A stretch of DNA of 64,000 nucleotides. Origin: Eledone cirrhosa (Eukaryota). The stretch is taken from NCBI GenBank assembly GCA_964016885.1, contig OZ024741.1, positions 90,830,001 through 90,894,000 on the forward strand, written 5' to 3'. The position numbers were made by a program, and so were the translations under genes. Below are positions 20,228 to 57,524 of this stretch, piece after piece; position 1 is the stretch's first letter; each line of letters opens with the position of its first letter. Below the pieces are notes generated by a model, which was not told the origin of the DNA, searched no databases, and saw nothing but the letters and a program-made list of their open reading frames with translations.

Positions 20228-20284
20228 ATGCTTCAATTAACCGGTAAATTCCTGCTCTGCGCCCTTCTTGCAGCAACAATCTCT
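20228..20284 (+). CDS. Exon 1: start codon and signal peptide ([19 protein letters not shown])
   Basis: ATG in the context cagcATG, then a basic plus hydrophobic stretch, then a GTGAGT donor in phase 0. This matches the phase-0 start of exon 2 (PLIA-DY completes a plausible cleavage site). Confidence 0.7.
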
Positions 20285-56200: not shown

Positions 56201-57524
56201 AAAAAGTACCCGATGTTAGTCCAAACTGCTCCTGTGGGATTAAAGAGAACTGCTCTCTCCAACAGAAATGAAATACCAAATCCATTGTGTATGGCAAAGA
56301 TTACACACTATAACACTGAACATTCTGAAGTTAGCGAAAGATACGTCAATATGGTGCAAGGTCATTTTAAACAACCTTTTTACACGCATCTTCACTCCTT
56401 CAGAAATCCTGATGTGAGAACTAGTACAACTCTGGCAAAAAAAGTCTAGCAATTAAAAGAGAAAGGATTCCCAGACAATATTACTTGGAAAATACTTGAG
56501 AGATCCAATGGTACCAAGAGATGTCTCTGTCTTAGTGAGAAATTTAGAATGTTACAAATTTTGTCATCTTCGAACAATATTTACTTGAACTCAAAGAACA
56601 AAATTTTTAAAGGATGCTTTCATCTAAAAATCCAACTGCTTACTAAATGGAAGTACTTAACAAATTCGACTGATTTTCAACCACCATAATTTGATTTATA
56701 TACTTCCGTTGTATCTTGTCTTTTTTTTCCTCTTTTTCTTTCCACACTTACATAATACAATACACTTTCTATAATAATCTACTTGATACCTTAATAAATA
56801 TTACCATCTCTGTATTACATTTCACTACATAATACAATACTACTGCTATAGCATACGAACACTAACACGTGAATGATCTCGACTTTCAAATTTACATCTT
56901 GGAGTTATTTTCGTTTGTTAAAATACATTTTTTCGTAAACTAGCGTTTTTAGCACGCATTACATTTAACGATAACTTATAAACTCGAATAAGTAATGCCA
57001 CTTCTGGAGACATTGTGGAATGTAGTCAATATTTGGCCTTGAAACTTTGGGTAGCACTTTTGTTCCGCGTAAGAACATAAATAAATAATATGTATATATA
57101 TATATATATATATATATATAGTTATATCTGAATACATACAGAGTGAAGAGACCAATGTGTACATATCTATTATATAGATAGACTAGAAAATACGAAATGA
57201 GAAAACCGAGAAAACCTTTAATTGATTGTGTGTGTGTATATATATATATATATATATATATATATATATATATATATATATATATATATTTGTGTGTGTG
57301 TATGTATATATATATATATATATATATCTTTTTTTTATTTTTCACCAGATTTCACATGTCCAGAAGCATCGGGGCTTTTCGCTGACCCACAGAGCTGCTC
57401 ACATTTTTATCAGTGTGATTGGAATATTGCCTACAGAAAAGCTTGTCCTGGAAACTTGCACTTCCACGTTGGAGTAAATGTGTGTGATTGGCCAAAGGAC
57501 GTTAACTGCAACATCAGACCTTAA
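20228..57524 (+). CDS. Multi-exon gene for a secreted Notch-ligand-like protein: SP-C2/MNNL-DSL-13xEGF-CBM14 chitin-binding domain (~771 aa)
   Basis: Exons 20228-20284, 34671-34860, 40542-40624, 41431-41598, 42029-42173, 45283-45393, 46095-46214, 47628-47741, 48224-48343, 49536-50549, 53483-53500 and 57349-57524. All have GT-AG boundaries and compatible phases, summing to 2316 nt (772 codons including TAA). Domains were recognised by eye from Cys spacing and motifs. Confidence 0.85.
22221..22287 (+). ncRNA. Type I hammerhead-like motif with canonical core
   Basis: Stem I TATATTTTGT/ATAAAATATA, core CTGATGA, imperfect stem II, GAAA, palindromic TATATA stem III, then TA. Confidence 0.6.
22790..23355. 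repeat. Long (TA)n array punctuated by CATG (higher-order microsatellite)
   Basis: Direct reading. Confidence 0.9.
23356..23810 (-). mobile_element. PLE-type pLTR fragment with a ~97-bp inverted copy and a hammerhead-like motif
   Basis: Inverted arms 23441-23537 and 23712-23810. Minus strand reads CTTGCTGA-CTGAGGA...GAAA...TA-CCAGCAAG at 23629-23704. Flanked by (TA)n. Confidence 0.65.
24163..24300 (-). mobile_element. SINE copy (5'-truncated)
   Basis: Reverse complement of the SINE body and B box. Confidence 0.8.
26100..26650. repeat. Degenerate ~33-bp minisatellite (TGTCACA..TTACAGTATT..ATTAAACAC motif)
   Basis: Recurrent GTCACA/TTACAG/TCAAATACA motifs at ~33-35 bp spacing. Confidence 0.55.
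26887..26988. mobile_element. Tc1/mariner-like MITE
   Basis: TATAGGGTGTCTCCCCAAAA ... TTTTGGGACACTCTCTA inverted ends, inserted in TA. Confidence 0.55.
27075..27200 (-). mobile_element. Family X copy with inverted 5' segment
   Basis: AACGAAGGAAG...GAGTAGTG joined to TCCAGAAATAGCCGTC...GAACATTTTC. Confidence 0.85.
28060..30290 (+). mobile_element. RTE-like LINE, 5'-truncated, with (GAT)n tail, in intron 1
   Basis: [42 protein letters not shown], a Cys-rich insert and RLRWYGHV. Ends in (GAT)n at ~30256-30290. Confidence 0.9.
31325..31655. repeat. Two overlapping inverted repeats (MITE-like plus a 108-bp hairpin)
   Basis: ATTTCGAGGGCGACAAATGGTTACG pairs with CGTAACCATTAGTTGTCCTCGAAAT; hairpin at 31548-31655. 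Confidence 0.7.
31807..32240. mobile_element. Near-perfect 380-bp palindrome (head-to-head inverted pLTR pair) plus a 54-bp tail between (TA)n tracts
   Basis: 31861-32046 is the reverse complement of 32055-32240 with few mismatches. Each arm contains GTCA-CTGA(C/A)GA...GAAAGAACTT-TGAC. Confidence 0.85.
33535..33668 (+). mobile_element. Family X copy, colinear (un-inverted) form
   Basis: CCAGAAATAGCCGTCGAAAC...CCTTCGTT-(AT)n. Confidence 0.85.
33990..34100 (+). mobile_element. Diverged SINE head
   Basis: TGGCAGAATCATTAG ... TTAAATCCCGCCGAAGTTAG. Confidence 0.6.
34671..34860 (+). CDS. Exon 2: first half of the Notch-ligand N-terminal C2/MNNL domain
   Basis: Polypyrimidine-TTACAG acceptor and GTAAGT donor. 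[20 protein letters not shown]...CQTSLTIC...[12 protein letters not shown] parallels Delta/Jagged ELQL..F.N..G.L.NG.CC...C.TFFRVC...CTYG...TPVLG. Confidence 0.85.
35135..35230 (-). mobile_element. SINE 3' fragment
   Basis: Matches the reverse of the SINE tail. Confidence 0.75.
35575..35775 (+). mobile_element. SINE copy
   Basis: B box GAGTTCAAATCCC followed by the conserved body. Confidence 0.8.
36080..38711 (-). mobile_element. hAT (Charlie/Buster, ZBED5-like) DNA transposon with defective transposase
   Basis: TIRs CACAGGTTCTCAAC / GTTGAGAACCTTTG with 8-bp TSD ATTTAGAC on both sides. Transposase fragments [27 protein letters not shown] and [11 protein letters not shown] at 36705-37750. Confidence 0.92.
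37763..38243. repeat. 40-bp minisatellite, ~12 copies, inside the hAT element
   Basis: Unit approximately TGTGTGTTGTATGTGGTCCTAGATGTATGTATTACCTGCC. Confidence 0.9.
39040..39215 (-). mobile_element. Second SINE family (tRNA head + central domain); related copies at ~1400-1510 (-), ~54090-54410 (-) and ~59965-60210 (+)
   Basis: Shared GAGTGGACTGGAGCAACATGAAATAAAGTGTCTTGCTCAAAGACAC...GGAATCGAACTC (reverse B box). Confidence 0.7.
40542..40624 (+). CDS. Exon 3: C2/MNNL domain (GDNIIDLN...[13 protein letters not shown])
   Basis: TTTCAG acceptor, CAG|GTAAGT donor, phase 1 to 0. Contains the NPI motif typical of DSL-ligand C2 domains. Confidence 0.8.
41431..41598 (+). CDS. Exon 4: end of the C2/MNNL domain ([10 protein letters not shown]...SLTYQIR)
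   Basis: TTTTTTTCAG acceptor, GTAAGT donor, phase 0-0. L.Y..R immediately precedes the DSL domain, as in Delta/Jagged. Confidence 0.8.
42029..42173 (+). CDS. Exon 5: DSL domain ([14 protein letters not shown]...[20 protein letters not shown])
   Basis: Six Cys in DSL spacing with FYG..C and C...G.K.C..G..G..C motifs. TTTCAG acceptor and GT donor, phase 0 to 1. Confidence 0.88.
42352..42540 (+). mobile_element. SINE copy with ~15-bp TSD
   Basis: Full A and B boxes; flanked by ATTATTATAACACTA and ATTATTATGACACTA. Confidence 0.88.
42780..43450. mobile_element. Old CRE-like remnant with an internal inversion
   Basis: 43080-43450 (-) resembles 16350-16600 (GGLGL region). 42788-43010 (+) resembles the SAWL...CRC...GLHPL region of the element at 15360-17600. 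Confidence 0.6.
45283..45393 (+). CDS. Exon 6: EGF repeat 1
   Basis: [14 protein letters not shown]...[12 protein letters not shown]; phase 1-1; CAG acceptor and GT donor. Confidence 0.88.
46095..46214 (+). CDS. Exon 7: calcium-binding-type EGF repeat 2
   Basis: [38 protein letters not shown]; phase 1-1; TAG acceptor and GTAAGA donor. Confidence 0.9.
46672..46785 (+). pseudogene. EGF exon with an in-frame TAA (pseudo-exon or truncating alternative exon)
   Basis: [35 protein letters not shown], with TAA at 46770-46772. Weak AAG acceptor and GTAAAA donor; phase 1-1; 114 nt. Confidence 0.75.
47628..47741 (+). CDS. Exon 8: EGF repeat 3
   Basis: [39 protein letters not shown] acceptor and GTAAGT donor; phase 1-1. 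Confidence 0.88.
48224..48343 (+). CDS. Exon 9: EGF repeat 4
   Basis: [40 protein letters not shown] acceptor and GT donor; phase 1-1. Confidence 0.88.
48493..48602 (-). mobile_element. Family X copy with a short inverted segment
   Basis: Same terminal sequence, flanked by (TA)n. Confidence 0.8.
49536..50549 (+). CDS. Exon 10: nine tandem EGF repeats (EGF5-13)
   Basis: Lies within ORF 49469-50605, with nine C-x-PC.NGG.C...C.C..GF.G..C units. Long pyrimidine tract plus TAG acceptor; AG|GTAAGC donor. Confidence 0.93.
51510..52575. repeat. Insertion flanked by a ~68-bp direct repeat and containing a ~248-bp tandem duplication
   Basis: ATTTAATACAATAACAGAG...CAACAAACATTA at ~51510-51578 and ~52507-52575; ~52005-52260 is repeated at ~52253-52510. 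Confidence 0.8.
53483..53500 (+). CDS. Probable 18-nt microexon (linker VGNPQK)
   Basis: TATTCTTTACAG|TTGGAAACCCGCAAAAGA|GTAAGT: strong acceptor and donor, frame-preserving, phase 1-1. Confidence 0.55.
54718..56926 (+). mobile_element. Degenerate Penelope-like element with an inverted upstream pLTR, in the last intron
   Basis: [30 protein letters not shown] and HLHSFR...STTLA fragments. 54718-54950 is the inverted copy of 56689-56926. Confidence 0.85.
55013..55215 (+). mobile_element. SINE copy nested in the Penelope-like element at 54718-56926
   Basis: Same family as 42352-42540, with a short tandem duplication at the 5' end (GGCGAATTGGCGGTGAATTGGC). Confidence 0.85.
57349..57524 (+). CDS. 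Last exon: CBM14 / peritrophin-A chitin-binding domain, then stop
   Basis: [53 protein letters not shown] matches the six-Cys ChtBD2 consensus (G.F.DP..C..FY.C...CP..L.F......CDWP..V.C). CAG acceptor, phase 1. Confidence 0.9.

What the first reader, a model, noticed from the sequence alone, without database searches (positions are those of the whole stretch)
20228..57524. Secreted Delta/Jagged-like ectodomain fused to a chitin-binding domain: a possible chitin-tethered Notch ligand or decoy
Seen: twelve phase-compatible exons give SP-C2/MNNL-DSL-13 EGF-CBM14-stop, followed by AATAAA; no transmembrane or cytoplasmic exon was found. Established: canonical DSL ligands (Delta, Serrate/Jagged) are type I membrane proteins whose anchoring and endocytic pulling force drive Notch activation; soluble ectodomains usually inhibit, whereas immobilised ones can activate. 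CBM14 binds chitin. Inference: the membrane anchor has been replaced by a chitin anchor, so the protein could present a ligand-like module on chitinous matrix (beak, radula, sucker lining, gut cuticle) and couple matrix to cell signalling, act as a matrix-bound antagonist, or be co-opted as a structural linker. I do not know this architecture from model animals.
Basis: partly seen in the sequence, partly recalled or inferred. Interest (0 to 1): 0.9.

Follow-up and report, generated by a model that had tools for sequence, protein, structure and literature searches.

The report
Octopus Notch-ligand head on chitin anchor
Octopuses transcribe a small tandem gene family in which the front end of a Notch signalling ligand is joined to a chitin-binding domain instead of a membrane anchor; its Notch-contact residues are replaced, so it likely works as a chitin-tethered surface-recognition protein rather than as a Notch signal.

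Summary
The gene is real. Twelve GT-AG exons give a 771-aa protein: signal peptide, C2/MNNL, DSL, 13 EGF, CBM14, stop, with no membrane helix. One 2,538-nt spliced contig joins exons 3-10 and the CBM14 exon without a mismatch. Two tandem paralogs 46 and 74 kb past the gene's end have the same build. So do 25 of 32 database models from three Octopus species; no protein from outside Octopus among 190 stored has the tail.

The Notch-ligand or decoy reading is weak. All five Jagged1 Notch-contact positions are replaced (F199/R201/R203/D205/F207 become G/E/P/A/Q), the short DOS-type EGFs are missing, and canonical ligands elsewhere in the genome keep the contact face. Two young paralogs differ more at amino-acid sites of the head than in their introns (7.4% against 2.5%).

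Best reading (about 0.45): a secreted, chitin-anchored recognition protein that works like the protochordate VCBPs, with a repurposed C2-DSL head. The tissue and the ligand are unknown. The architecture sits unnoticed in automatic annotations; my paper searches found no description of it.

The parts
20228..20284 (+). Exon 1: start codon and signal peptide (19 codons)
   Evidence: ATG, hydrophobic core and GT donor; exon and 120 nt upstream nearly identical in both paralogs; signal peptide judged by eye and hydropathy, no SignalP run
34671..34860 (+). Exon 2: C2/MNNL domain, first part
   Evidence: Pfam MNNL E 0.0027 alone; 67% identical to O. vulgaris models
40542..40624 (+). Exon 3: C2 domain, middle
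   Evidence: in the spliced contig
41431..41598 (+). Exon 4: C2 domain, last part; the beta5-6 loop is about 10 residues shorter than in Jagged-type ligands
42029..42173 (+). Exon 5: DSL domain with the Notch-contact positions replaced
   Evidence: Pfam DSL E 1.3e-10; alignments to DLL1/DLL4; position table
45283..45393 (+). Exon 6: EGF1, an ordinary EGF and not the short DOS type
46095..46214 (+). Exon 7: EGF2 (Ca-binding type by Pfam EGF_CA)
46672..46785 (+). Broken EGF exon with an in-frame TAA at 46770-46772, skipped in the transcript
   Evidence: sequence; Pfam EGF E 4.7e-05; joint 46213>47627 and no RNA depth in that bin
47628..47741 (+). Exon 8: EGF3
48224..48343 (+). Exon 9: EGF4
49536..50549 (+). 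Exon 10: nine tandem EGF repeats
53483..53500 (+). Exon 11: 18-nt linker microexon
   Evidence: 18-letter gap in the contig and depth in that bin; 18-nt counterparts in both paralogs and in Octopus models
57349..57524 (+). Exon 12: CBM14 chitin-binding domain and stop codon
   Evidence: Pfam CBM_14 E 1.4e-13; matches to chitinase CBM14, tachycitin and a squid beak protein in the PDB; on the spliced contig
57576..57581 (+). AATAAA, a candidate polyadenylation signal (use not shown)
   Evidence: contig end not resolved

Best explanation
The gene encodes a protein with a signal peptide, a Notch-ligand-type C2-DSL head, a 13-EGF stalk and a C-terminal chitin-binding domain; it is likely secreted, likely anchors to chitin by its tail, and likely uses the head to recognise non-Notch surfaces such as the membranes of microbes or parasites at chitin-lined epithelia, much as VCBPs do. 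Shown: the transcript, the domain order, the absence of a membrane helix, the loss of the Notch-contact residues, a tandem family with stalks of about 3 to 20 EGFs, and an excess of amino-acid changes in the head between two young paralogs. Inferred: secretion, chitin binding, loss of Notch binding, lipid or glycolipid binding by the C2 domain, the tissue, and the barrier or immune role.
For: Architecture and splicing. Fold: an AlphaFold2 model of the O. sinensis relative P0180 (pLDDT 86) matches Drosophila Serrate C2-DSL (Z 16.3, rmsd 3.2, 177 aligned), Delta (Z 16.2) and DLL1 (Z 15.2); the alignment behind it held canonical ligands. Notch face lost: G/E/P/A/Q in the window; P at the R203 position in 13 of 13 family sequences examined and E or D at the R201 position in 11 of 13; the ligands at L029, L030 and L031 in the same genome keep R, R, D and F. 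CBM14 keeps six cysteines and the terminal C-D-W motif in 10 of 10 family tails. Head changes between paralogs B and C: 33 non-synonymous differences in 442 sites (7.4%) against 59 in 2,352 aligned intron bases (2.5%), Fisher p 1.5e-6. Without exon 2: 15 in 303 against 56 in 2,202, p 0.025. The CBM14 has 2 non-synonymous and 2 synonymous differences. Fifteen of the 27 amino-acid differences lie in residues 26-56, which covers the first strand and the beta1-2 loop. Notch-ligand C2 domains bind liposomes, Delta-type ones without calcium sites, and their loops are thought to set lipid preference (PMC3888931, PMC5538765, passages). Functional model: VCBP-C binds gut chitin and bacteria in Ciona (PMC4757023, abstract only). 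Precedent for a C2-DSL head without a membrane anchor and with a lectin-type tail: Platynereis DSL-like 2, MNNL-DSL-EGF-fibrinogen C (P0170).
Against: There are no tissue data, so a chitin-lined site of action is assumed. The non-synonymous excess is not significant against synonymous sites alone (33 versus 5, p 0.13), sites are not independent, and patchy gene conversion could produce it. Across 11 family heads the head is only slightly more variable than the CBM14 (mean identity 0.67-0.75 against 0.76), and the beta1-2 region (0.71) is not more variable than the rest of C2 (0.67). A against B or C gives dN/dS of about 0.3-0.7 in head and tail alike. Both putative lipid loops are shorter than in Jagged, and the acidic beta5-6 calcium loop is gone. 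DLL3, a divergent ligand, binds neither Notch nor liposomes (PMC5538765, passages), so the C2 may not bind lipid at all. EGF plus CBM14 is also typical of structural matrix proteins (recalled).
Confidence: 0.45

Rival explanations
1. Structural linker: the protein ties the host's own epithelial cells to their chitinous cuticle (sucker lining, beak, radula, foregut), with CBM14 in the chitin and the C2 head on the cell membrane or a matrix protein.
For: A rod of variable length with a binding module at each end. The EGF stalk is basic (34 K/R against 17 D/E). The CBM14 matches a squid beak protein weakly (E 0.23). The head is only modestly more variable than the tail across the family.
Against: A conserved host partner does not predict the excess of amino-acid changes in the head between paralogs B and C. 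There is a single CBM14, whereas many cuticle proteins carry several (recalled).
Confidence: 0.28
2. Chitin-tethered Notch ligand or decoy: matrix anchoring replaces endocytic pulling, or the protein competes with Delta and Jagged.
For: The C2-DSL fold is kept. Plate-bound Jagged1 fragments activate Notch (PMC3888931, passage). A secreted DSL ligand exists in C. elegans (PMC3415683, passage), and nematode DSL loops are divergent yet functional (recalled, not checked). Notch signalling acts in the chitin-making chaetal sacs of Platynereis (PMC5356439, passages). Eight EGFs carry the O-fucosylation consensus.
Against: 0 of 5 contact residues are kept, with a charge reversal and a proline. F207A and R203K each abolish binding in Jagged1 (PMC3888931, PMC5538765). 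The DOS EGFs are absent. Canonical ligands with intact faces are in the same genome, so the receptor is unlikely to have co-diverged. The family head sits on a branch of 2.5 changes per site.
Confidence: 0.15
3. Prey-directed secretion: a salivary or digestive protein that sticks to crustacean chitin and carries the C2-DSL head to prey tissue.
For: Found so far only in Octopus, tandemly duplicated, with a fast-changing head; octopus salivary genes often show this pattern (recalled).
Against: There is no catalytic or pore-forming domain. A search for papers that join octopus salivary gland, chitin-binding, EGF and Notch found none.
Confidence: 0.1
4. Artefact: the CBM14 exon belongs to a separate gene, or a transmembrane exon was missed.
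For: 7 of 32 Octopus models lack an in-frame CBM14. Only one RNA-like run was available, as contigs, which drop rare isoforms.
Against: One spliced contig carries both parts. The same exon order occurs in three tandem copies. The seven exceptions are short, truncated or frameshifted models; P0001 reads the CBM14 exon in another frame (E 1e-11). No model has a C-terminal membrane helix.
Confidence: 0.02

Closest known systems
Canonical Notch ligands Delta and Serrate/Jagged
   Same: Signal peptide, C2/MNNL, DSL, EGF order; same fold of the head (Z 15-16); conserved cysteines.
   Different: No transmembrane or intracellular part, no VWC domain, no DOS-type EGF1-2, Notch-contact residues replaced, C-terminal CBM14.
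'DSL-like' proteins as defined by Gazave et al. 2017 (PMC5356439), e.g. Platynereis DSL-like 2
   Same: DSL protein with an extra domain foreign to Delta and Jagged. DSL-like 2 has no clear membrane helix and ends in a fibrinogen C domain.
   Different: The tail is CBM14, the stalk is long and variable, and the genes form a tandem family. The paper set this class aside without analysis.
Invertebrate Delta-like proteins without DOS EGFs (Haliotis, Littorina, Batillaria, Aplysia, Owenia, Anneissia)
   Same: C2-DSL followed directly by ordinary EGFs; often partly divergent DSL loops.
   Different: Most are membrane-anchored (10 of 17 non-octopus relatives checked have a hydropathy peak of 2.79 or more), none has the CBM14, and they are only 21-29% identical over the head.
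VCBPs of amphioxus and Ciona
   Same: Secreted; N-terminal recognition module plus one C-terminal chitin-binding domain; multigene and variable (PMC4757023 abstract; PMC2632668 search listing).
   Different: VCBP heads are immunoglobulin V domains and there is no EGF stalk. This is an analogy of design, not homology.
Sea urchin fibropellins (a name given to some database models)
   Same: Secreted EGF arrays of the extracellular matrix (recalled).
   Different: Fibropellins have CUB and avidin-like domains (recalled), not C2-DSL or CBM14; the database name reflects only the EGF array.

Membership tests
Canonical Delta/Jagged (definition of PMC5356439) | Signal peptide, MNNL/C2 and DSL domains | tested here: met
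   (signal peptide by hydropathy only)
Canonical Delta/Jagged (definition of PMC5356439) | Transmembrane helix and intracellular domain | tested here: not met
   stop after CBM14 on the transcript; maximum hydropathy 0.77 after residue 40
Canonical Delta/Jagged (definition of PMC5356439) | VWC domain (Jagged) | tested here: not met
   no VWC hit on any exon scanned or on relatives; the last EGF is followed by a 6-residue linker and CBM14
Canonical Delta/Jagged | DSL Notch-contact residues F199, R201, R203, D205, F207 | tested here: not met
   G, E, P, A, Q in an ungapped alignment; numbering from PMC3415683, mapped by spacing on the DLL1 chain
Canonical Delta/Jagged | Short DOS-type EGF1-2 after DSL | tested here: not met
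   ordinary EGF follows DSL
Canonical Delta/Jagged | Binds and activates Notch | not testable with these tools
   needs a binding or reporter assay
DSL-like proteins (Gazave 2017) | DSL domain plus at least one conserved domain not found in Delta or Jagged | tested here: met
   DSL and CBM_14 above cut-off on one transcript
CBM14 / peritrophin-A domain | Six-cysteine pattern and conserved aromatic residues | tested here: met
   Pfam 51 bits against a cut-off of 22; alignments to chitinase CBM14 and tachycitin
CBM14 / peritrophin-A domain | Binds chitin | not testable with these tools
   needs a pull-down
VCBP | Two N-terminal immunoglobulin V domains | tested here: not met
   the head is C2-DSL
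VCBP | Secreted protein with a single C-terminal chitin-binding domain | tested here: met
   architecture only; secretion inferred
VCBP | Gut expression and binding to microbes | not testable with these tools
   tissue of run X1 is not on record

The most novel reading that the evidence does not exclude
Octopuses have turned the extracellular head of a Notch ligand into a diversifying, chitin-tethered pattern-recognition receptor family, an independent invention of the VCBP design, in which the C2 loops and the former Notch-binding loop of DSL form a new variable binding surface.
Probability: 0.3. Interest if true: 0.8.

Novelty: new variant of a known kind. Interest (0 to 1): 0.6.

Why it matters
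It shows a core developmental signalling module apparently recycled for a job on chitin, with the switch visible in the sequence: anchor swapped, receptor face replaced. It gives a natural test of what a C2-DSL head does without Notch, an open question since its lipid binding was found. It may point to an unrecognised barrier or adhesion system of octopus chitin-lined surfaces. It also warns that database names such as 'jagged-1b-like', 'delta-like 1', 'notch homolog 1-like' and 'fibropellin-1' for these Octopus genes mislead counts of Notch pathway genes. If the protein did activate Notch from chitin, it would be a matrix-anchored Notch ligand, which would be more surprising still, but the sequence argues against that.

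Tried and rejected
No RNA holder was listed on record for the stretch. Run X1 behaves as RNA (spliced joints, no intron cover); X2-X4 behave as DNA. The first AlphaFold model, of full-length P0153 with a 6-row alignment, was unusable (pLDDT 38). Foldseek against the PDB was not obtained because the machine was busy; the wide VIA search was used. The search of protein representatives with P0001 was swamped by EGF arrays, so it says little about range. Pfam missed CBM_14 in the five longer EGF-rich Octopus proteins scanned that carry it, so I used my own tail profile without filters. The ESM Atlas returned only generic DSL clusters. No squid, cuttlefish or nautilus relative appeared among 21 profile hits; the word-based search and sparse proteomes make this weak. 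The tree of heads (25 rows; 8 candidates dropped because a DSL regex missed them) leaves the family's origin unresolved because long branches meet. In one search two of the three repeated EGF exons of paralog B were dropped by a script fault; they were read, and the head and tail comparisons are unaffected. The skin-mucus and ink proteome supplements of O. vulgaris (PMC10138644, PMC10142993; both files cut when stored) showed no matching names. Supplements of PMC8166818 gave no chitin term, but one PDF of pictures was not searchable and its DSL architecture figure could bear on novelty. The look-ups in earlier scan findings returned nothing. No complex prediction with Notch was run: a pass could come from likeness to solved structures and a failure would be no evidence.
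Full report
1. Observation. Translation of the window shows a + strand gene of 12 exons between 20228 and 57524. All introns are GT-AG and in phase, and the joined frame is 771 aa. Pfam finds DSL (E 1.3e-10) on exon 5, EGF on exons 6-10 and CBM_14 (E 1.4e-13) on exon 12; MNNL on exon 2 alone is below cut-off. The C2 assignment is backed three ways: a profile of 10 non-octopus C2 regions (57 bits against 3.6 for the best of 200 shuffles), MNNL above cut-off in a close relative, and a confident model of a relative's head that matches Serrate, Delta and DLL1 structures at Z 15-16 (the alignment used included canonical ligands). 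No hydrophobic stretch follows the signal peptide.

2. Transcript. Four runs hold the stretch. One, X1, covers exons only. A contig of 2,538 letters joins exons 3 to 10 at GT-AG joints with no mismatch and skips a broken EGF exon at about 46672-46785. A contig of the same length and depth lies on the CBM14 exon, with exactly 18 letters between the two parts, the length of the microexon at 53483-53500. The length fits 117 nt of 5' UTR, 2,316 nt of coding sequence and about 105 nt of 3' UTR. This is one run, held as contigs, so rare isoforms would be invisible.

3. Family. The window is G000:C2:90830001-90894000. Two paralogs follow at C2:90933978-90946612 (B) and 90961025-90979708 (C). Each has the same exon order, an 18-nt microexon candidate and a stop after CBM14. 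B has a long stalk with three 813-bp EGF-exon units that are 99% identical; C has four EGFs. Database relatives come from O. vulgaris, O. sinensis and O. bimaculoides, 62-68% identical in the head. Of 32 Octopus models with the head, many of them isoforms of a few genes, 25 end in the same CBM14. The other seven are short, truncated or frameshifted, and none has a C-terminal membrane helix. Among 190 stored proteins the tail profile hits only those 25. A profile search returned 21 proteins, 9 Octopus and 12 others; the named others are gastropod, annelid and insect proteins, mostly 21-29% identical. The range beyond Octopus is not settled. The genome has 11 DSL exon matches and at least 129 CBM14 matches; only the three family genes have both close together (both lists are lower bounds).

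4. Is it a Notch ligand? The Notch-binding face of Jagged1 DSL is F199, R201, R203, D205, F207 (PMC3415683, passages). F207A removes binding (PMC3888931, passages), and so does the mild change R203K (PMC5538765, passages). The window's DSL aligns without gaps to DLL1 and DLL4 and has G, E, P, A, Q at these places. All 13 family sequences examined have proline at the R203 place and 11 have an acid at the R201 place; B and C keep only D205. Three DSL exons elsewhere in the genome (L029-L031) keep R, R, D and F, and a fourth (L032) has a near-canonical loop. The short DOS-type EGFs that follow DSL in Delta and Jagged are missing. Canonical Notch binding is therefore unlikely. It is not excluded: nematode ligands are divergent and work (recalled), and the C2 domain also touches Notch.

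5. What it likely does. The tail is a typical CBM14, so chitin anchoring is the plain inference. The head is conserved in fold but lies on a very long branch (2.5 changes per site, support 100/100; origin unresolved). Between the young paralogs B and C, amino-acid sites of the head differ by 7.4% and aligned introns by 2.5% (p 1.5e-6; p 0.025 without exon 2), while EGF1 has no differences and CBM14 has two amino-acid changes. The changes cluster around the beta1-2 loop, part of the lipid-binding tip in other ligands, and three lie in the DSL loop. This fits a head selected to recognise varying targets, as in VCBPs, which bind gut chitin and bacteria (PMC4757023, abstract). Against it: the excess is not significant against synonymous sites alone (p 0.13), gene conversion is evident, the head is barely more variable than the tail family-wide (0.67-0.75 against 0.76), and the calcium loop is lost, so lipid binding is uncertain. 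I put recognition at chitin-lined surfaces at 0.45, cell-to-cuticle linker at 0.28, Notch ligand or decoy at 0.15, prey-directed secretion at 0.10 and artefact at 0.02.

6. Comparison and novelty. By the definitions of Gazave et al. (PMC5356439, passages) the protein is neither Delta nor Jagged but 'DSL-like', a class they set aside. Their Platynereis DSL-like 2 ends in a fibrinogen C domain, so heads of this kind have been joined to other tails before, and MNNL-DSL proteins without a membrane helix were noted in Capitella and sea urchin predictions (PMC6040629, passages). He et al. (PMC8166818, passages) surveyed lophotrochozoan DSL genes including two octopuses; 'chitin' does not occur in the main text, and one picture supplement could not be searched. 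Searches for DSL with chitin binding found no description: 0 papers; 2 papers; in the one opened, DSL is a plant lectin; the other, a shrimp genome paper, was seen as a listing only; 0; 0; 6 listed, none on this gene by title or abstract start; 0 occurrences of CBM14 in the 20 of 22 listed. The library lacks most subscription journals. The architecture is present in RefSeq and UniRef models under misleading names, so it is known to databases but apparently not described.

7. Verdict. It is a new variant of the DSL-like proteins, so far seen only in octopuses, with a testable change of function. Interest 0.6.

Noticed in passing
window 20108-20284 and paralogs at G000:C2:90933978 and 90961025: The signal-peptide exon and 120 nt upstream are almost identical in all three paralogs (0 mismatches in 120 upstream; 1 in 57 in the exon for A-B and B-C) although the coding heads of A and B differ by about 20%. 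This suggests gene conversion or recent spread of the 5' end and shared regulation.
   Followed up: partly
G000:C2:90939623, 90940436, 90941249: Three 813-bp tandem units, each with one EGF exon, 99% identical: stalk length changes by exon duplication.
   Followed up: partly
window 46672-46785; G000:C2:90941985-90942070: A broken EGF exon in the window's gene has a broken, truncated counterpart in paralog B.
   Followed up: partly
window 5000-7779, 10601-11161, 60594-62000: Long ORFs with reverse-transcriptase-like and GIY-YIG-like motifs, resembling Penelope-type retroelements by recalled motifs; Pfam gave only a weak GIY-YIG hit (E 0.008) on 10601-11161.
   Followed up: partly
window 17427-17002 (-) and 28492-28896 (+, intron 1): LINE-type reverse transcriptase remnants (Pfam RVT_1 E 5.6e-06 and 1.1e-11).
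   Followed up: partly
window about 42350-42550, 48400-48700, 55020-55220: Short interspersed repeats of very high copy number (summed contig depth 1e5-1e6 in DNA runs), also abundant in the spliced run.
   Followed up: no
L035 (C4:260098054), L037 (C4:259895030), L038 and L039 (C2:355406053, 355593061): Four further divergent DSL exons that also lack most Notch-contact residues and have no listed CBM14 nearby.
   Followed up: partly
fold search of the head model: After the Notch ligands, the best matches are two tardigrade C2-domain proteins, one a Mn-dependent peroxidase (7df2, 7dbt; Z 14.5 and 13.8): another possible reuse of this C2 type.
   Followed up: no
P0182, P0185 (database models): Two Octopus models appear to fuse neighbouring tandem genes (internal CBM14 and second signal peptide, or two heads), a sign that the array is mis-annotated.
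   Followed up: no
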